Source: a virus. From it: 64,000 bases of DNA. Positions 27,174 to 32,321 of this stretch are shown here, piece by piece. Location: UHGV virus genome UHGV-1378817. The stretch is one strand, 5' to 3'. The notes under the pieces were generated by a model. That model did no database searches. It was not told the origin of the DNA and was given only the letters and a program-made list of their open reading frames with translations. Within the stretch, counting starts at the first letter, position 1; each line of letters begins with the position of its first letter. The translations under genes were made by a program, and so were the position numbers.

Positions 27174-29510
27174 TTACCAAAGGTCGGTAGACATGAAGTT
27201 GATATCTTTATTGTTCTCCCACTCAAGTTTTGCATCAAATATTTTGTTAAACTCACCCTCATCTATTGAAATCGTGATTTTCCCATCACTGATCTCTAAA
27301 GGTAGCATTTCCATAGTTCTTAATTGAGAAGCAAAACCAGGGCCACCCGGCAACGGAAGAGTCCCGCCCGGTAAGGTGTCCAAAGGATTAACAAACCCGT
27401 TACCTCCCGATATGATATCTTTGCGAATCATATCGCTGATAGTATCCAGCTGCTGATTTCTTTCACTTAGTGGGTTGTAACGGTCATTAAATAATTCCCC
27501 GGCGCTTAGTATTGTACCGATAATGCCCAGCTTACCGAGCAGACCAACTTTGCCACCAGGTGTCTTGAGACCACCTCCACCTTTTCCTGCCGGAGCTCCA
27601 CCACCAGATCCTTCTGTAGTAGCGGCACCCGCTGCTCCAGCTGCACCTCTTAGAGAGTTAAGGAATTTAAAGGTTTTTACAAGCATGGATGCCATGACAA
27701 AACCTTTTGTTAGGGCGTTGACTACCAGCATGATGGCAGCAGCAAACCCTGCCCATTTAGCATAGCTAAAGGTGTCATGAAGCTCTTCAGAATATTCCTT
27801 CGTCTTAGCTGTTATGAATCCCCATTTAATCCCCCATTCAAGGAAAAACATGCGGATCTTGACTATAGTGTTGTTTAGTTCACCAACTACCCAGTTAAGG
27901 CCTCTCACAAACCCGCTAACAAAATCACCAGAGGCATCCCACACAAATTGCAGAGTCTCACCCGTGCGGATTAGTGTATAATAGAACTCTGTTAGTTCGT
28001 CAGACCAACGGGTGAACAGTTTCTGACGAGTCAGTTCGATGAAGGTTTTCAGTCTGTTTTCTGCCAGCACGTTAGACTTCTGCATTCTTTCATAACCAGC
28101 TGCAGATGCCTCGTTCATGTACTTAGCCACATACTTCATGATCTTGGCTGTTTTAACCTCACCTTTCTTCATCATGTCCATGAACTGATCCATGGAGAGT
28201 TCAGAAAGACCAAAAGCCTCTTTGGTGGCCTTGATAAAAGGTTCGTATGCACCAGGCAAGGCTTCAGCAAGTTGTTGCTTCAGTTCTTCGGACATTACTT
28301 GTCCCTTGCCAAGCATCTGTTGGATTGCCATAATACCGCGCTGGTATTTTACCTCATCAGCACCATAAGCAGCAGCGTACTGGGAGTATGCAGAAAACAG
28401 CTCATGCACTTCCTGATTTGTCATCTGGTTTTTGGCGTTTACCGACATCTGGGCGTAACCTTGAAGACCAGATTTGAGATCAAAACCAAGACGCATAGCC
28501 TCTTGCTGGACAAACGCAACCTCACTGTTGGCTTTGTTTGGATCTCCAGTAACAGCAGTAAGAGCAGCACTTGCCCCCTCCATCATGTGACCGGATCTAT
28601 TAACCGCAGCAAATCCAGAAAAAGCTGTATACGCAGCTGTTGCATTAATAACAGATCTACGTAAGTCTCTCATGGCATCGCCTAGTGTAAGCGTTTGGCT
28701 GGTGGCGCTTTTAAACCCAGACTGCAGCGCTGACAGGTGGGCGTTAAAGGTTGACTTTTTCATCTCCCCGCGAGCAAACCTGGACTCTAACTCTGAGTAT
28801 CCTGGCAAGCTTCCACGGAATCCGGCCCCATACTTGGCAGAAAGTCTTATCGCGGAGTTGTAGAGGTGGGTTCTTCTTGCCTCACGATCCGACATAAGCC
28901 TATTATCCATACCAGCTTTACCATCCCTTCTTAGCTGTCTATGATAACGATTCATAGCAGCTGTCTGAGCTTTTACAAGATTAGGGTCGGAAGCCACACC
29001 ACCCATATTAGGGTTACCGGGGATATATTTGAAAGCTTTGGCATTAGCCAGAACTCTTGCCTTAGGTGCCTTATAACCGCCGTAAGACACTGGTGCAGAT
29101 TTGGCAGCCTTTTTGGCCTCTTTAGCTTGCTGCTGGTAGAACTTACGCATCCTAGCCATTTCTGGATTTTTAGCGGTAAGATTACCTACAGCTTGTTTAC
29201 GTCTCGCATTCTCCCTACGTTCTATTGCAGCCCTTACTGCAGCCTCTTTCTTGGCCTGTGCTACGCTCTCCCTGTGAAGTTTAGCATTTGCCTGAGATTG
29301 CTGTCTGGCAACCCTCTGCATTGTCTGCTGGGTTTTAACAGCTACCGCCTGCCATCTACTCATGGGGTTGGCTGAGTTAAAATCCTCACCTAGTTTCCTG
29401 AACTCCCTCCCAATACTGCGAATTTTCTCTACAGCTTTTTTGTAGGAGGAGTTCTCTATCTCAAAGCCAATCTTGTTGACTGTTGTGGCAACTATTTTGT
29501 TTGTAGCCAT
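27174..29510 (-). CDS. tail tape measure protein (778 aa)
   Basis: Long alpha-helical Ala/Gln/Lys-rich N-terminal half, central hydrophobic segments, Gly-rich tract (GAAGAAGAATTEGSGGGAPAGKGGGG), directly downstream of G/GT chaperone pair. Confidence 0.7.
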   Translation of the reverse strand: MATNKIVATTVNKIGFEIENSSYKKAVEKIRSIGREFRKLGEDFNSANPMSRWQAVAVKTQQTMQRVARQQSQANAKLHRESVAQAKKEAAVRAAIERRENARRKQAVGNLTAKNPEMARMRKFYQQQAKEAKKAAKSAPVSYGGYKAPKARVLANAKAFKYIPGNPNMGGVASDPNLVKAQTAAMNRYHRQLRRDGKAGMDNRLMSDREARRTHLYNSAIRLSAKYGAGFRGSLPGYSELESRFARGEMKKSTFNAHLSALQSGFKSATSQTLTLGDAMRDLRRSVINATAAYTAFSGFAAVNRSGHMMEGASAALTAVTGDPNKANSEVAFVQQEAMRLGFDLKSGLQGYAQMSVNAKNQMTNQEVHELFSAYSQYAAAYGADEVKYQRGIMAIQQMLGKGQVMSEELKQQLAEALPGAYEPFIKATKEAFGLSELSMDQFMDMMKKGEVKTAKIMKYVAKYMNEASAAGYERMQKSNVLAENRLKTFIELTRQKLFTRWSDELTEFYYTLIRTGETLQFVWDASGDFVSGFVRGLNWVVGELNNTIVKIRMFFLEWGIKWGFITAKTKEYSEELHDTFSYAKWAGFAAAIMLVVNALTKGFVMASMLVKTFKFLNSLRGAAGAAGAATTEGSGGGAPAGKGGGGLKTPGGKVGLLGKLGIIGTILSAGELFNDRYNPLSERNQQLDTISDMIRKDIISGGNGFVNPLDTLPGGTLPLPGGPGFASQLRTMEMLPLEISDGKITISIDEGEFNKIFDAKLEWENNKDINFMSTDLW

Positions 29511-29517
29511 GGTTTCC

Positions 29518-29561
29518 TCATAATAAAAAGGGCCAGATCCCAGAAAAGGAATCCGGCCCTT
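29518..29561 (-). terminator. candidate terminator/hairpin between chaperone and tape measure genes
   Basis: 7-bp stem AAGGGCC/GGCCCUU with large internal loop, then UUUUUAUUAU on minus transcript, then GAGGAAAC SD and the tape measure ATG. Confidence 0.35.
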
Positions 29562-29564
29562 AGA

Positions 29565-29813
29565 TTATCCTCTCCTGCGCTTAGCTTTCGCAGCAGCTGC
29601 GGCAGCCTTCTGCTCCCGCTCCATTTCCCTGTTTTGGACGGTATCTAGGAATTCTTCGATATCAAGATACTCACAGAGCTTCAGGAAATACGCCATATCT
29701 GCAAGATTTAGCGATTCAAAATTTTCCCCTTTGAAATTCTTGAGCACCCTGCACCAAAGAAAGTCGAACCAGTTAAGTGAACTGTTCTTGGCTGCCCACT
29801 CACTGGCCCTCAC
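29565..29813 (-). CDS. tail assembly chaperone -1 frame extension (gpT-like), probably expressed as a fusion with 29825..30298
   Basis: This frame is -1 relative to the upstream chaperone ORF and stays open from the slippery site (plus 29924-29930) to the stop at 29565; C-terminus Ala/Lys/Arg-rich. Confidence 0.5.
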   Translation of the reverse strand: MRASEWAAKNSSLNWFDFLWCRVLKNFKGENFESLNLADMAYFLKLCEYLDIEEFLDTVQNREMEREQKAAAAAAKAKRRRG

Positions 29814-29824
29814 AACAACCTTGC

Positions 29825-30298
29825 TTATTCCTGCTCTTCCGGAGTCTGATCCAGGTTGTTCACCTGCTGAATCATACCCATCTGCTGTAACATCTCCAGA
29901 AGGCTTCCTAAACCGTCTTGTGTGAAAAAACAGCCGTAGTTAACCTCCAGAACCTTACCTGCCAGCTTAATCATCTCCAGCAGATGCCCTGCAAACACAA
30001 CATCCGGGTTAAGCTTATCCACACCATCTACGGTAATATCTTCGAACAAAATTTTAAATAACTCTTCAATAGAGTTATCATCAAGTTCTTGGAACAGGTA
30101 AGCCAGAGCAGTAGGAAGGACTTCTGCCATGTTCTGACCGCCTGAGATAATAGATCCGCCGATAGCACCTAGCGGGACAGCCACAATCTTACCGATTTTA
30201 GGCATGTTTTTCATTGCTTTCATCGGTCCCCAGTGGGTGATCACAAAGTTGTGCCCTGCTAAATCAATCTCTGTTGTAGGTCTAAAGTTTATAGCCAT
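29825..30298 (-). CDS. tail assembly chaperone (gpG-like, 157 aa)
   Basis: First gene after promoter at 30342-30370; acidic C-terminus; immediately upstream of tape measure gene; contains slippery heptamer. Confidence 0.55.
   Translation of the reverse strand: MAINFRPTTEIDLAGHNFVITHWGPMKAMKNMPKIGKIVAVPLGAIGGSIISGGQNMAEVLPTALAYLFQELDDNSIEELFKILFEDITVDGVDKLNPDVVFAGHLLEMIKLAGKVLEVNYGCFFTQDGLGSLLEMLQQMGMIQQVNNLDQTPEEQE
29924..29930 (-). promoter_or_regulatory. candidate -1 ribosomal frameshift slippery heptamer U_UUU_UUC
   Basis: In the zero frame of 29825..30298 the sequence reads tgT TTT TTC (C-F-F); the heptamer fits X_XXY_YYZ and the -1 frame is open downstream. Confidence 0.5.
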
Positions 30299-30341: not shown

Positions 30342-30370
30342 ATTTTACCATGATTATGGTGCATTGTCAA
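30342..30370 (-). promoter_or_regulatory. near-consensus promoter TTGACA-17-TGG-TAAAAT
   Basis: Minus strand reads TTGACA ATGCACCATAATCATGG TAAAAT; sits between tube-gene terminator and chaperone gene start (30298). Confidence 0.5.
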
Positions 30371-30410: not shown

Positions 30411-30442
30411 TAAAAGCAAAAAGCCCCACCCGAAGGTGAGGC
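30411..30442 (-). terminator. intrinsic terminator after tail tube gene (UUCG loop)
   Basis: Plus GCCCCACC-CGAA-GGTGAGGC; minus transcript hairpin followed by UUUUUGCUUUUA. Confidence 0.6.
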
Positions 30443-30460
30443 TTATGCTAAAGTGTGCCC

Positions 30461-30934
30461 TTAGATAATACCTGCAAGACCTGCGAGGCCAGTAAGAGCA
30501 CCAGTGATGTTATCACGGTTGAGCCATGCATCCAGAATACCGATATCCCAGTCCAGTTGACCTACTTCGGTTCCGTAAGTCAGGTCAGGCTGTTTCTGGA
30601 TCCAACCGATTGTGGAAATACCAGGACCCTGGCTACCTTCCAGCAGAACCGGGAAGAATACCAGGCCAGTAATCGATGCCTGTTTCTGCCAGTCAGAAAG
30701 GTAAGCGTTCCATACAGAAGTGTTCTGCAAAGACACGGTCATAACACCGGATTGGTTACGGGACAGAGCCGCAGACATTTCACCATCCACACCGACGTGA
30801 GGATAAATGTTGTCTTCGTTTCTTGAAACAACAATCTTGGTGTCAGCAGCGAAGCCAGTGACACGCTGCTGCATCAGATACAGTTTGACCTTTTTAGGGT
30901 CATACGCATAAGGAGTTAAAATTTGAGTTTCCAT
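30461..30934 (-). CDS. tail tube protein (157 aa)
   Basis: Size and position (between sheath and chaperones); strong terminator downstream as expected for an abundant structural gene. Confidence 0.6.
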   Translation of the reverse strand: METQILTPYAYDPKKVKLYLMQQRVTGFAADTKIVVSRNEDNIYPHVGVDGEMSAALSRNQSGVMTVSLQNTSVWNAYLSDWQKQASITGLVFFPVLLEGSQGPGISTIGWIQKQPDLTYGTEVGQLDWDIGILDAWLNRDNITGALTGLAGLAGII

Positions 30935-30944
30935 CTAGGCTTCC

Positions 30945-32321
30945 TTATTCAGTCATTGCAACAGCATTGGTGGATTTAGAACCAACTTTGTCCAGAAGGA
31001 CGTTGATCCGGATACGAACGAAGTGCAGGGCGTTATTATACACCAGTTCTACTTTCACACCTTCCAGAACACGAGCAGCCAACTGATTGGTTGGGATTTC
31101 TGCACGTTTAGGAACTGTGATGATCGGGTCGTAGAATACATTATTGTCTTCGTCGAAACCTGTCAGGATCGCACCATTCTTAATGCCAGTGTTGATTGGG
31201 TTGTTCATCAGGACAGACTTGATAACCGGAAGATCATCATCAGACATCTTCATGCTTAAACCCATATTAGAGCGACGATGCATGTACCCAAACATAGATT
31301 CTTCAGATCTGAACTTGATCCAGTGTGCAAAACGAATAGCGTCTGCATACTGGCCTGAAGCACACTTGCCTTCCCAGAAAGCACCAACACCGTTAATCAT
31401 TCTGTAGAAGTTAACGTGGTTTTCCCAAATCGCCATACGCTGAGTTAAAGTCATAGATGGTGCAATCACACCCGGCATCTGTTTTAAATGCAAGCTGTCA
31501 CCGTAAGACGGATCGTTGGATGCCATAGCGCCTACGATACCACCCTCTGGAAAATCTTTATCAGCACGAGGGTCGTACATGCCAACACTGTCATATTGTG
31601 CAGCCATCAGTTTGGTGGCGATGTTATTATCTTTACCAGTCACATCTTCTGCAGTAGAGTAGACATGCAGTTTGTAGTTAGCCTGAGCCCACTTAGCACA
31701 TGCTTCAATGTCGGTGTGGTCTTCATGGCACAGGAAGTACCAATTGTCACGCTCAGCATTGATCTTATCAACCACTGTAGAAGGTTTTTCAGCATTGGCG
31801 ATATTTTTGATTGTATAGTTACCGGTATGGTAACCAACAGTACAGTCACCAGTGATAGTGATAACACCATCATCAGCCTCTACGGTGATATCGTTCAAGC
31901 TATCATCTGCTTCAATTTTAGTCTTCATTGACTCTGCAATCTGAGTTGCACCTGTTCCACCAGAGATAGGTACTATCAAAGAAGTATTGTAGCTACCTTT
32001 TGCAATAGTCATTACGACATCGGTATCAGCTGCGGCAGCAATACCTTTAAAATCTACAGTGGTCTTTTCTTTGGCCTGTCTGCCGATCATAACGTATTGT
32101 GGAGGGAATACACCACCAAAAGCTTTTGCTGCAAACTCATACGCTGCAGAGCCTTGTGCGAAACCATCTTCCACCATCTGATCCAGCTCTGCATATACGC
32201 GAGCTCGCTCAGTAAAGTTGTTGTGGATAGCGATGAACAGGGGAGTTTCGAAACCTACAGTGTCTATAGGCTGGGTTCCGAGGTTAACTGTAACATCTAC
32301 CACTTTATCTAAATATGGCAT
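30945..32321 (-). CDS. tail sheath protein (458 aa)
   Basis: 458-aa ORF immediately upstream of tube gene; AAGAGGAAAC SD; order sheath-tube-chaperones-tape measure typical of contractile tails. Confidence 0.6.
   Translation of the reverse strand: MPYLDKVVDVTVNLGTQPIDTVGFETPLFIAIHNNFTERARVYAELDQMVEDGFAQGSAAYEFAAKAFGGVFPPQYVMIGRQAKEKTTVDFKGIAAAADTDVVMTIAKGSYNTSLIVPISGGTGATQIAESMKTKIEADDSLNDITVEADDGVITITGDCTVGYHTGNYTIKNIANAEKPSTVVDKINAERDNWYFLCHEDHTDIEACAKWAQANYKLHVYSTAEDVTGKDNNIATKLMAAQYDSVGMYDPRADKDFPEGGIVGAMASNDPSYGDSLHLKQMPGVIAPSMTLTQRMAIWENHVNFYRMINGVGAFWEGKCASGQYADAIRFAHWIKFRSEESMFGYMHRRSNMGLSMKMSDDDLPVIKSVLMNNPINTGIKNGAILTGFDEDNNVFYDPIITVPKRAEIPTNQLAARVLEGVKVELVYNNALHFVRIRINVLLDKVGSKSTNAVAMTE

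What the first reader, a model, noticed from the sequence alone, without database searches (positions are those of the whole stretch)
29565..30298. Programmed -1 frameshift candidate in the tail chaperone pair upstream of the tape measure gene
Within the gpG-like ORF the zero-frame codons tgT TTT TTC form the slippery heptamer U_UUU_UUC (plus 29924-29930). The -1 frame is open from that point through ORF 29565..29813, which would give a longer G-T fusion product. Position immediately upstream of the tape measure gene matches the conserved G/GT arrangement of tailed phages.
Basis: partly seen in the sequence, partly recalled or inferred. Interest (0 to 1): 0.5.

Follow-up and report, generated by a model that had tools for sequence, protein, structure and literature searches.

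The report
Tail chaperone -1 frameshift in rV5-like phage
The flagged site is very likely a real, evolutionarily conserved ribosomal -1 frameshift that makes a short and a long form of the tail assembly chaperone in an rV5-like E. coli phage: a textbook mechanism, but not annotated in any public genome record of this phage group that I inspected.

Summary
The window is an rV5-like E. coli myophage (Vequintavirus). On the minus strand the gene order is sheath, tube, tail assembly chaperone (29825-30298; Pfam Phage_TAC_15), a -1-frame ORF ending at 29565, then the tape measure gene.

The heptamer T_TTT_TTC (29930-29924) is in the correct phase and is the only canonical slippery heptamer in the overlap. 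Slippage there would give a 244-aa G-T fusion.

- **Conservation.** In 58 of 59 scored loci (the window plus related loci; 37 distinct fusion proteins, down to about 29% identity) the heptamer is invariant. The codon before it changes (TGT, CCT, AGT, TCT), yet its third base stays T. Other conserved Phe codons vary freely between TTT and TTC.
- **The -1 ORF.** It always extends 188-296 nt past the G stop and evolves as coding sequence.
- **No separate start.** Ten of 23 lineages have no possible start codon for it.
- **A replaced site.** A Barbavirus relative carries G_GGA_AAG instead.
- **Stimulators.** No downstream RNA structure is supported. An SD-like GGAGG lies 13 nt upstream and is largely conserved.

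The mechanism is the known G/GT tail-chaperone frameshift. It has already been annotated or proposed in related FelixO1-like and Pakpunavirus phages. This is a new member of a known kind, valuable mainly for annotation.

The parts
29825..30298 (-). Tail assembly chaperone gene (G-like), 157 aa, zero frame, stop TAA at 29827-29825.
   Evidence: ORF and translation. Pfam PF21822 Phage_TAC_15 at 83.6 bits (cut-off 22), E=2.3e-23, residues 15-129. phrog_3840 tail assembly chaperone, E=5e-69.
29924..29930 (-). Slippery heptamer T_TTT_TTC (zero-frame codons tgT TTT TTC, residues C123 F124 F125).
   Evidence: Sequence and phase. Invariant in 58 of 59 scored loci and in all 37 distinct fusion proteins: Phe124 TTT 37/37, Phe125 TTC 37/37, and the preceding codon TGT, CCT, AGT or TCT, always ending in T.
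29944..29948 (-). SD-like GGAGG, 13 nt upstream of the heptamer; candidate upstream frameshift stimulator (inferred).
   Evidence: Anti-SD duplex energy is -10.5 kcal/mol, against a mean of -1.9 at control in-frame positions. An SD-like motif at 13-14 nt is present in 28 of 37 sequences. Glu118 is GAG 27:3, against GAA 281: GAG 107 for the other Glu codons (Fisher p=1e-11). The same GGAGG-N13-TTTTTTC is present in FelixO1-like contigs.
29828..29923 (-). Dual-coding overlap. The zero frame encodes the G-specific 32-aa tail (TQDGLGS...EEQE). The -1 frame encodes the start of the T extension (HTRRFRKP, then a Gly/Ser/Asp-rich linker).
   Evidence: Translations. Synonymous-site identity rises from 0.40 upstream to 0.52 in the overlap (MWU p=0.015). 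The top-ranked columns of the whole gene are 124, 125, 128, 129 and 130.
29565..29924 (-). The -1-frame extension (T part): 119 codons from CAC at 29924 to the stop TAA at 29567-29565. Joined to G residues 1-125 it gives a predicted 244-aa GT fusion.
   Evidence: Open frame. tblastn finds both pieces adjacent in relatives down to about 29% identity.
29568..29825 (-). Conserved C-terminal T domain (SKVVVRASEWAAKNSSLNWFDFLWCRVLK...). Databases hold it as the 'hypothetical protein' family phrog_10409.
   Evidence: Alignment of 23 lineages. Substitutions at T-frame codon positions 1/2/3 are 18/15/56 for the window against L025. phrog_10409, E=8.5e-51, function unknown. The AF2 model is predicted helical but has low confidence, pLDDT 51.
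29811..29813 (-). GTG that opens the annotated 82-aa ORF; rival independent start.
   Evidence: Weak SD (AAGG, -4.2 kcal/mol, against -6.0 and -6.3 for the G and tape measure starts). It lies inside the conserved motif. The position is not conserved, and 10 of 23 lineages have no start codon at all.
27174..29510 (-). Tape measure protein gene (778 aa), immediately downstream.
   Evidence: Pfam PF20155 TMP_3, E=1.4e-18. Annotated as tape measure in relatives.
30461..30934 (-). Tail tube gene, upstream context.
   Evidence: Pfam PF11681. Annotated as tail tube in OR062943.
30342..30370 (-). Sigma-70-like promoter (TTGACA-17-TAAAAT, extended -10 TG) just upstream of the chaperone gene.
   Evidence: Consensus scan, 11 of 12 matches. 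A promoter is annotated at the equivalent place in phage Gotham.
29528..29561 (-). Terminator-like hairpin (14 bp plus a T tract) directly after the T-frame stop and before the tape measure start.
   Evidence: Scan. A terminator is annotated at the same place in Murica and Gotham.

Best explanation
**What it is.** This is the tail assembly chaperone pair of an rV5-like (Vequintavirus) myophage, expressed by programmed -1 ribosomal frameshifting.

**The two products.**
- Most ribosomes translate the 157-aa chaperone (G-like) to its stop.
- A minority slip back one nucleotide on U_UUU_UUC. The P-site tRNA-Phe moves from UUU to UUU and the A-site tRNA-Phe from UUC to UUU.
- Those ribosomes continue in the -1 frame to 29565. 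They make a 244-aa product with three parts: the chaperone domain (residues 1-125), a flexible Gly/Ser/Asp-rich linker, and a conserved helical domain of about 85 aa (T-like).

**Inferred function.** By analogy with lambda G/GT, the short form would coat the tape measure protein. The rarer long form would add a domain that recruits tube subunits, and neither would stay in the virion.

**Stimulators.** The shift probably needs no downstream RNA structure. It may be boosted by the SD-like GGAGG 13 nt upstream pairing with 16S rRNA, as in E. coli dnaX.

**Shown versus inferred.**
- Shown here: the ORF geometry, chaperone homology, nucleotide-level selection on the heptamer, coding selection on the -1 frame, and the lack of a conserved independent start.
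- Inferred: that slippage actually happens, its efficiency, the role of the SD-like element, and what the T domain binds.
For: **Geometry and phase.** The heptamer is in phase. The -1 frame is open for 124 codons, starting three codons upstream of the heptamer, and no other slippery heptamer lies in the overlap.

**Chaperone homology.** The first ORF is a tail assembly chaperone lying between the tube and tape measure genes.

**Conservation of the arrangement.**
- 58 of 59 scored loci keep in-phase T_TTT_TTC at the homologous codon. This set is the window, 14 GenBank loci and 43 of 44 IMG/VR loci. They include Vequintavirus, Seunavirus, Mydovirus, Certrevirus, Stephanstirmvirinae and Plateaulakevirus phages and an Acinetobacter phage.
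- In all of them the -1 ORF runs 188-296 nt beyond the G stop.

**Selection at the nucleotide level.**
- Phe124 is TTT 37/37 and Phe125 is TTC 37/37.
- The preceding residue varies (Cys, Pro, Ser; four codons), but its third base is always T.
- Control Phe columns are 18:17, 15:14 and 23:12 (TTC:TTT).
- Synonymous identity is 0.99 at the heptamer against 0.36-0.42 upstream.
- MWU gives p=3e-4 for codons 119-125 and p=0.015 for the overlap.

**Translation of the -1 frame right after the heptamer.** G-frame codons 128-130 are synonymously frozen (GAC 14/14, GGT 34/35). This fits the conserved -1-frame Arg-Phe.

**The T domain is coding.** Third-position substitutions dominate, for example 18/15/56.

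**No conserved start.** Ten of 23 lineages have no ATG, GTG or TTG. Gene callers across 1.84 billion representative proteins yield only ragged fragments of 43-102 aa.

**Replacement and natural fusion.**
- Barbavirus lacks the T-run but has in-phase G_GGA_AAG four codons downstream, with a homologous T domain.
- 28 FelixO1-like contigs have agT_TTT_TTC at the same site. One record (CL1) has T7, which fuses the frames into a 213-aa ORF annotated as 'tape measure chaperone'.

**Literature.**
- U_UU.U_UU.C is among the efficient -1 motifs in E. coli (PMC4066793).
- The G/GT mechanism and its 30:1 product ratio are established (PMC5009743).
- The same frameshift is annotated in FelixO1-like Moogle (PMC4319497). 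It is also proposed for Vandenendeviridae and Andersonviridae (PMC12846349).

**SD-like element.**
Against: - There is no direct protein evidence. The rV5 proteomics paper mentions neither a frameshift nor a chaperone, and chaperones are not expected in virions.
- No conserved or unusually stable downstream RNA structure exists. The consensus fold has no pairs. The z-scores for the 70 nt downstream run from -1.4 to +2.2 in 12 lineages, and the window scores +0.19. Efficiency may therefore be low.
- The window does have a GTG with a weak SD 12 nt after the G stop, so some independent or re-initiated T product cannot be excluded here.
- FF is a conserved dipeptide, so part of the heptamer conservation is protein-driven.
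- The IMG/VR sample was recruited with a peptide pattern ending ...NY[GA][CPS]F. It is therefore biased towards lineages that keep this peptide, though not towards any codon choice.
- None of about 20 GenBank or RefSeq records inspected annotates a join.
Confidence: 0.87

Rival explanations
1. The downstream ORF is a separate small gene. It would be initiated at its GTG (29813), either independently or by termination-reinitiation after the G stop 12 nt upstream. The heptamer would be conserved only because Phe-Phe is conserved.
For: - A GTG with a weak SD (AAGG, -4.2 kcal/mol) lies 12 nt after the G stop in the window.
- Many GenBank records, including the manually curated Murica record with an RBS feature, annotate it as a separate gene.
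Against: - The GTG is not conserved and lies inside the conserved SKVVxRA motif.
- Ten of 23 lineages have no ATG, GTG or TTG between the heptamer and the conserved Trp.
- Annotated starts are scattered, and called fragments range from 43 to 102 aa.
- Third-base T before FF and fixed TTT/TTC choices are not explained by protein conservation.
- Synonymous freezing of G codons 128-130 shows -1-frame constraint upstream of any start.
Confidence: 0.05
2. The long product arises by transcriptional slippage rather than ribosomal slippage. RNA polymerase would add one extra U on the T6 run, and that mRNA subpopulation would be translated conventionally into GT.
For: - The site is a homopolymeric T6 run.
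- One extra T fuses the frames exactly, as seen in the CL1 record, which has T7.
- TTTTTTC is somewhat depleted in the window.
Against: - Efficient bacterial transcriptional slippage is described for runs of about 9 A or T (PMC5009743). Here the run is 6.
- The run is strictly phased as X_XXY_YYZ in every lineage. A polymerase mechanism would not need this.
- Barbavirus replaces it with G_GGA_AAG, a ribosomal slippery heptamer that is not a homopolymer.
- An SD-like element at dnaX-like spacing fits a ribosomal mechanism.
Confidence: 0.06
3. No functional recoding occurs. The -1 ORF would be a non-expressed remnant or a chance open frame, and only the 157-aa chaperone would matter.
For: - No experimental detection exists.
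- No downstream stimulator is found.
- The AF2 model of the T part has low confidence.
Against: - The -1 ORF stays open in all 58 loci that carry the heptamer, across roughly 30-100% identity.
- It evolves with a strong third-position bias.
- It has a conserved domain.
- The slippery site is replaced, not lost, in Barbavirus.
Confidence: 0.02

Closest known systems
Phage lambda gpG/gpGT tail assembly chaperones (-1 frameshift at G_GGA_AAG; Levin et al. 1993; Xu, Hendrix & Duda 2004, 2013, 2014, as summarised in PMC5009743)
   Same: Two overlapping ORFs lie directly upstream of the tape measure gene, the second in the -1 frame. A canonical X_XXY_YYZ heptamer sits in the overlap. The result is a short abundant product plus a rare C-terminally extended fusion. 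No strong downstream structure is required.
   Different: - The chaperone family differs (Phage_TAC_15, with no detectable sequence similarity to gpG), and the host phage is a large lytic myophage.
- The heptamer is U_UUU_UUC.
- The shift site lies 34 codons before the G stop (from my memory, it is close to the end of G in lambda). The short form therefore has a private 32-aa tail.
- An SD-like element lies 13 nt upstream.
[quoted passage not shown]
   Same: This is a homologous chaperone (tblastn and alignment). It has the same agT_TTT_TTC at the homologous codon, the same GGAGG 13 nt upstream and the same -1 extension. It is almost certainly the same ancestral recoding site.
   Different: - Those reports concern other taxa.
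- The papers I checked on rV5, Murica, phiTE and phi92 contain no mention of a frameshift.
- No Vequintavirinae or Stephanstirmvirinae record inspected carries a joined CDS.
- The T extension is longer here (119 aa against 92 aa).
Phage P2 gpE / gpE+E' (-1 frameshift on a T-rich heptamer in a myophage; recalled from memory, Christie et al. 2002)
   Same: It is a contractile-tailed phage with a tail chaperone pair between the tube and tape measure genes and a U-rich slippery heptamer.
   Different: The protein family is unrelated, and the phage is small and temperate. I did not test this comparison here.
E. coli dnaX -1 frameshift (A_AAA_AAG with an upstream SD-like stimulator and a downstream hairpin)
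   Same: An SD-like sequence lies a short distance upstream of the heptamer. It falls within the 6-17 nt range used by Sharma et al. (PMC4066793).
   Different: No downstream hairpin is present here. The shift extends the protein rather than truncating it. The function of the SD-like element is only inferred.

Membership tests
G/GT-type tail assembly chaperone frameshift (Xu, Hendrix & Duda 2004) | The gene pair lies between the major tail (tube) gene and the tape measure gene. | tested here: met
   Order on the minus strand is sheath 30945-32321, tube 30461-30934, G 29825-30298, T to 29565, tape measure 27174-29510.
G/GT-type tail assembly chaperone frameshift (Xu, Hendrix & Duda 2004) | The second ORF overlaps the 3' part of the first in the -1 (rarely +1) frame and extends beyond its stop. 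| tested here: met
   The -1 frame is open from 29939 to 29565. It overlaps G by 112 nt and extends 260 nt beyond the G stop. The +1 frame closes after 19 codons.
G/GT-type tail assembly chaperone frameshift (Xu, Hendrix & Duda 2004) | A canonical slippery sequence lies in the overlap, in the correct phase, and is conserved among relatives. | tested here: met
   T_TTT_TTC is the sole candidate. It is invariant in 58 of 59 scored loci, with synonymous-site evidence. Barbavirus has G_GGA_AAG instead.
G/GT-type tail assembly chaperone frameshift (Xu, Hendrix & Duda 2004) | The downstream ORF lacks its own conserved translation start. | tested here: met
   Ten of 23 lineages have no ATG, GTG or TTG. 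The rest have weak-SD candidates at non-homologous positions. The window's GTG is lineage-specific.
G/GT-type tail assembly chaperone frameshift (Xu, Hendrix & Duda 2004) | Both the short and the fused product are made at a fixed low ratio. | not testable with these tools
   This needs a western blot, mass spectrometry or a reporter assay.
G/GT-type tail assembly chaperone frameshift (Xu, Hendrix & Duda 2004) | Both products are required for tail assembly and are absent from virions. The T domain binds the tube protein, and the G domain binds the tape measure. | not testable with these tools
   This needs genetic and biochemical tests. The AF2 model of the T part is too poor (pLDDT 51) for fold comparison. 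No PDB relative was found by sequence.
Pfam PF21822 Phage_TAC_15 | The score is above the family gathering threshold over most of the profile. | tested here: met
   83.6 bits against a cut-off of 22. Residues 15-129 match profile positions 2-125 of 127. The shift at residue 125 leaves nearly all of the matched domain (residues 15-129) in the fusion.
SD-stimulated -1 frameshift (dnaX / IS type) | An SD-like sequence lies 6-17 nt upstream of the heptamer. | tested here: met
   GGAGG lies 13 nt upstream (29948-29944). The element is present in 28 of 37 sequences. Glu118 has a GAG bias with p=1e-11. It is also present in FelixO1-like contigs. Its stimulatory function was not tested.
Structure-stimulated -1 frameshift (hairpin or pseudoknot 5-9 nt downstream) | A conserved, unusually stable downstream RNA structure is present. 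| tested here: not met
   RNAalifold predicts no consensus pairs. The 70 nt downstream do not fold better than shuffles in 12 lineages. The only stem in the window starts 19 nt downstream and is not conserved. No Rfam match was found.
Programmed transcriptional slippage | A long homopolymer run (about 9 A or T in bacteria) is present, with no need for codon phase. | tested here: not met
   The run is T6. It is strictly phased in all lineages and is replaced by GGGAAAG in Barbavirus. The run-length criterion comes from PMC5009743.

The most novel reading that the evidence does not exclude
The recoding cassette may be more than the heptamer. It may be a compact, structure-free module, GGAGG-N13-U_UUU_UUC, in which the upstream SD-like sequence stimulates the shift. 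This module appears to have been frozen at one codon of the Phage_TAC_15 chaperone. It is found across a very deep clade of large lytic myophages: Vequintavirinae, Stephanstirmvirinae and Felixounavirus, and partly Plateaulakevirus. Lineage-specific elaborations exist, such as the tandem C_CCU_UUU_UUC in Stephanstirmvirinae and the swap to G_GGA_AAG in Barbavirus. The dual-coded 32-aa private tail of the short form would then also be functional, making this a three-part product design (G-tail against GT-linker-T) rather than the lambda-style 'G plus extension'.
Probability: 0.35. Interest if true: 0.4.

Novelty: new member of a known kind. Interest (0 to 1): 0.25.

Why it matters
The main value is for annotation.

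- **Missing join.** None of the roughly 20 records I inspected joins the two reading frames. They come from several hundred rV5-like, PVP-SE1-like, CR3/phiTE-like and phAPEC8/phi92-like records that match the fusion. These phages are widely used in therapy and biocontrol work.
- **What the records list instead.** Most list the chaperone and a separate small 'hypothetical protein', and some omit the second ORF.
- **A database consequence.** PHROGs holds the T part as a family of unknown function (phrog_10409).

Recognising the frameshift assigns a function to that ORF. It also explains why gene callers give it ragged starts.

It is useful for engineering as well. Synonymous recoding or refactoring of the tail module must preserve TTTTTTC and probably the upstream GGAGG.

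Scientifically it adds a well-sampled example of a slippery site kept invariant over deep divergence without a downstream structure. It does not change the understanding of the mechanism.

Tried and rejected
- **Downstream stimulatory structure.** The 125-nt fold of the window gave z=-2.3, but the stem starts 19 nt after the heptamer. A 12-lineage consensus fold gave no pairs. The 70 nt downstream fold no better than shuffles. Rfam found nothing relevant. I rejected this as a conserved feature.\n- **Other shift sites or the +1 frame.** There is no other in-phase heptamer, and the +1 frame closes after 19 codons.\n- **In-frame G-T fusions or stand-alone T genes.** The word-indexed search gave 3 hits, all 80-82-aa fragments. 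The exhaustive search gave 17 hits. These were only ragged 43-102-aa fragments, plus weak multi-stretch hits to long unrelated proteins. The T part alone, with a 4-row alignment, gave pLDDT 51, so I ran no fold search. PDB sequence searches were empty.\n- **Existing frameshift annotation in public records.** None was found in about 20 records, including RefSeq and the curated Murica record.\n- **Literature on rV5-like phages.** I found no mention of the frameshift.\n- **MiataMamis.** Its two small ORFs suggested a broken T frame. The frame is in fact intact, and the split is a gene-calling artefact.
Full report
**What the window is.** The 901 bases around the finding are at least 99% identical to 42 phage records and 95-99% identical to 76 more. 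Most are named Escherichia phages of the genus Vequintavirus (rV5-like myophages). All relevant genes lie on the minus strand.

- Sheath: 30945-32321 (DUF3383).
- Tube: 30461-30934 (KPP10_Orf10 family).
- A 157-aa ORF: 29825-30298.
- An 82-aa ORF: 29565-29813.
- A 778-aa tape measure protein: 27174-29510 (TMP_3).

The 157-aa ORF is a tail assembly chaperone by homology. It matches Pfam Phage_TAC_15 at 83.6 bits against a cut-off of 22 (E=2e-23). It also matches phrog_3840 'tail assembly chaperone' at E=5e-69.

**Checking the observation.** Read on the minus strand, codons 123-125 of the chaperone are tgT TTT TTC (Cys-Phe-Phe). TTTTTTC at 29930-29924 therefore has the X_XXY_YYZ phase needed for tandem -1 slippage.

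- The -1 frame carries a TAA three codons upstream of the heptamer. It is then open for 124 codons, down to the TAA at 29567-29565, and takes in the whole 82-aa ORF.
- The heptamer is the only in-phase slippery heptamer in the 112-nt overlap. The +1 frame closes after 19 codons.
- Slippage would join residues 1-125 of the chaperone to 119 residues of the -1 frame (HTRRFRKPSGD...), giving a 244-aa product.
- The motif as such is not enriched. TTTTTTC occurs 11 times in the window against 18.8 expected.

The case therefore rests on phase, the long open frame and comparative evidence, not on the presence of the motif.

**Comparative evidence for the arrangement.** A tblastn search with the predicted fusion found both halves as adjacent pieces in different frames. 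This held in hundreds of phage records down to about 29% identity. The records included Seunavirus, Mydovirus, Certrevirus, an Acinetobacter phage, and Phapecoctavirus and Justusliebigvirus of the Stephanstirmvirinae.

- I retrieved 12 such loci. In all of them T_TTT_TTC sits in phase at the homologous codon, and the -1 frame runs 254-278 nt past the chaperone stop.
- A scan of IMG/VR with the chaperone alignment gave 44 more loci. Of these, 43 show the same pattern, with extensions of 188-278 nt.
- Two Aeromonas Plateaulakevirus-type phages also show it, with a 296-nt extension.

One caveat applies. The IMG/VR scan used a peptide pattern ending ...NY[GA][CPS]F. It therefore favours lineages that keep this peptide, although it is neutral with respect to codon choice.

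**Selection acts on the nucleotides, not only on Phe-Phe.** Among 37 distinct fusion proteins:

- Phe124 is TTT in 37 of 37 and Phe125 is TTC in 37 of 37.
- The three other well-conserved Phe columns are split 18:17, 15:14 and 23:12. All other Phe codons together are 149 TTC to 124 TTT.
- The residue before the pair changes between Cys, Pro and Ser, using four different codons (TGT 18, CCT 11, AGT 5, TCT 3). Its third base is T in all 37.

Synonymous identity between pairs of sequences below 75% identity:

| Codons | Identity |
|---|---|
| 1-118 | 0.36-0.42 |
| 119-122 | 0.65 |
| Heptamer | 0.99 |
| Overlap | 0.56 |

The most synonymously frozen columns of the whole gene are 124, 125, 128, 129 and 130. 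By column means (0.40 for codons 1-118, 0.77 for codons 119-125, 0.52 for the overlap), Mann-Whitney tests against the upstream columns give p=3e-4 for codons 119-125 and p=0.015 for the overlap.

The frozen GAC and GGT at codons 128-129 supply the C and T that begin the conserved Arg and Phe codons of the -1 frame (..RFR..). The -1 frame is therefore already under protein-level constraint three to five codons after the heptamer. That is far upstream of any possible separate start.

**The downstream reading frame is a real protein domain without a start of its own.** In an alignment of 23 diverse T parts, the overlap encodes a variable Gly/Ser/Asp-rich linker. A conserved domain of about 85 aa (SKVVxRAxEYAxKNSSLxWFDYLWCRVLK...) begins at the chaperone stop.

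- Substitutions between the window and five relatives fall mainly on the third codon position of the T frame, for example 18/15/56.
- The window's GTG (29813) lies inside the conserved motif and has only a weak SD (-4.2 kcal/mol, against -6.0 and -6.3 for the two neighbouring real starts). It is not conserved.
- Ten of the 23 lineages have no ATG, GTG or TTG at all between the heptamer and the conserved Trp.
- Annotated starts in GenBank are scattered accordingly.
- An exhaustive search of 1.84 billion representative proteins returned only ragged fragments of 43-102 aa.

Independent initiation at the GTG is not the conserved way of making this domain.

**Natural variants that point the same way.**
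- *Barbavirus.* Rheinheimera phage Barba18A has lost the T-run (HYGCLTSGKS). It carries an in-phase G_GGA_AAG, the lambda heptamer, four codons further on. Its -1 ORF encodes a homologous T domain. A slippery site that is replaced rather than lost argues for function and for a ribosomal mechanism.
- *FelixO1-like phages.* In 28 contigs the homologous codons read agT TTT TTC, with a 92-aa -1 continuation. The GenBank record of phage CL1 alone has seven Ts, which fuses the frames into a 213-aa ORF. Its authors annotated that ORF as 'tape measure chaperone'.
- *Stephanstirmvirinae.* The site is extended to C_CCU_UUU_UUC, which is two overlapping heptamers.
- *The exception.* L062 reads tcT TTT TGG (five Ts), yet its -1 frame is still open for 161 nt past the stop.

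**How it most likely works.** U_UU.U_UU.C is one of the more efficient -1 motifs measured in E. coli, and U_UU.Y is second only to A_AA.G as an A-site tetramer (PMC4066793).

I found no downstream stimulator.
- The window's 125-nt fold has z=-2.3, but its main stem starts 19 nt after the heptamer.
- A consensus fold of 12 lineages has no pairs.
- The 70 nt following the heptamer fold no better than shuffles in 12 lineages, with z from -1.4 to +2.2.
- Rfam has nothing relevant.

There is, however, an SD-like GGAGG 13 nt upstream (29948-29944). Its predicted anti-SD pairing is -10.5 kcal/mol, against a mean of -1.9 at control positions.
- An SD-like element at 13-14 nt is present in 28 of 37 sequences.
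- By my reading of the printed representative sequences, it is present in about 6-7 of 10 clusters at 60% identity.
- The Glu codon that forms its core is GAG 27:3, although these genes otherwise prefer GAA 281:107 (Fisher p=1e-11, not corrected for relatedness).
- FelixO1-like contigs carry the same GGAGG-N13-TTTTTTC.

This spacing lies within the 6-17 nt range used for SD-type stimulators of -1 frameshifting (PMC4066793). I regard its stimulatory role as plausible but unproven.

Transcriptional slippage is a weaker rival for three reasons. The run is only six Ts, whereas bacterial examples involve about nine (PMC5009743). The run is strictly phased. Barbavirus uses a heptamer that is not a homopolymer.

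**Function.** The role of the two products is inferred by analogy with lambda. There, gpG and the G part of gpGT bind the tape measure, the T part binds the tube protein, the ratio is about 30:1, and neither protein stays in the virion (PMC5009743).

One difference is that the shift site here lies 34 codons before the chaperone stop. The short form therefore has a private, moderately conserved 32-aa tail. The fusion still keeps nearly the whole Pfam-matched domain (residues 15-129; the shift is at residue 125).

I could not test binding partners. The T part alone modelled poorly, at pLDDT 51 with helices after a disordered linker. No solved relative exists by sequence.

**Comparison with what is known, and novelty.** The G/GT frameshift is a textbook feature of long-tailed phages.

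- For homologous chaperones it was annotated in FelixO1-like phage Moogle in 2015 (PMC4319497).
- In 2025 it was proposed as a conserved 'GTTTTT' -1 frameshift in Vandenendeviridae and Andersonviridae, groups described there as relatives of Vequintavirinae (PMC12846349).
- For rV5-like phages I found no description. The rV5, Murica, phiTE and phi92 papers do not mention it.
- None of about 20 inspected GenBank or RefSeq records joins the frames.
- PHROGs lists the T part as a family of unknown function.

The finding is therefore correct and useful for annotation, but it is a new member of a known kind.

**Verdict.** I put the probability that a -1 ribosomal frameshift at this heptamer produces a functional fusion at about 0.87. 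Interest is 0.25.

Noticed in passing
window 30342-30370 (-), 30421-30444 (-), 29528-29561 (-): The chaperone pair looks like its own small transcription unit. A terminator-like hairpin follows the tube gene. Next comes a near-consensus sigma-70-like promoter (TTGACA-17-TAAAAT with TG). A 14-bp terminator-like hairpin then sits directly after the T-frame stop, just before the tape measure start. Murica and Gotham annotate terminators or a promoter at the same places. This could set the chaperone-to-tape-measure stoichiometry.
   Followed up: partly
L020 (OK040806.1, Escherichia phage CL1) 874-1515, against L066-L093: The CL1 GenBank record has seven Ts where 28 related FelixO1-like contigs have six. 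This produces a single fused 213-aa 'tape measure chaperone' ORF. It is either a homopolymer sequencing error or a genuine constitutive-fusion mutant.
   Followed up: partly
L019 (NC_048189.1, Rheinheimera phage Barba18A) about 1224-1230: The homologous chaperone lacks the T-run. It has an in-phase G_GGA_AAG (the lambda heptamer) four codons downstream, with a homologous T domain in the -1 frame. This is an example of slippery-site turnover within one chaperone family.
   Followed up: partly
L004, L005, L013, L014, L043, L047-L063 (Stephanstirmvirinae-like loci): The site is extended to ggC CCT TTT TTC. This gives two overlapping slippery heptamers, C_CCU_UUU and U_UUU_UUC. Sharma et al. list both among the motifs with more than 0.10% frameshifting without a stimulator.
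   Followed up: no
L062 (IMGVR_UViG_3300035698_000246) about 655-680: This is the only relative without the heptamer. It reads tcT TTT TGG (five Ts), immediately followed by AAGGAGG, and its -1 frame is still open 161 nt past the stop. The shift site and mechanism in this lineage are unclear.
   Followed up: no
search hits (for example MG065646.1, MG065654.1): Eighteen records named 'Campylobacter phage', with host given as C. jejuni, match this E. coli rV5-like sequence. The five listed are about 99% identical, and further records so named match Justusliebigvirus-like phages. They probably reflect mislabelled or contaminating coliphages.
   Followed up: no
P0010, P0012, P0013, P0018, P0019: The conserved core of the T domain (query residues about 32-88) gives weak multi-stretch matches (E from 3.5e-6 to 8.1e-4, 4-8 stretches) to long proteins of 737-1311 aa of unknown nature. 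This may be a repeated helical motif or may be chance.
   Followed up: no
window 29931-29942 (-), codons 119-122: The codons just upstream of the heptamer (GTT AAC TAC GGC) show raised synonymous conservation (0.65 against about 0.40). GGC is used at Gly122 (26 of 33), although other Gly columns prefer GGT. This may be a sequence-context effect on slippage that goes beyond the SD-like element.
   Followed up: partly
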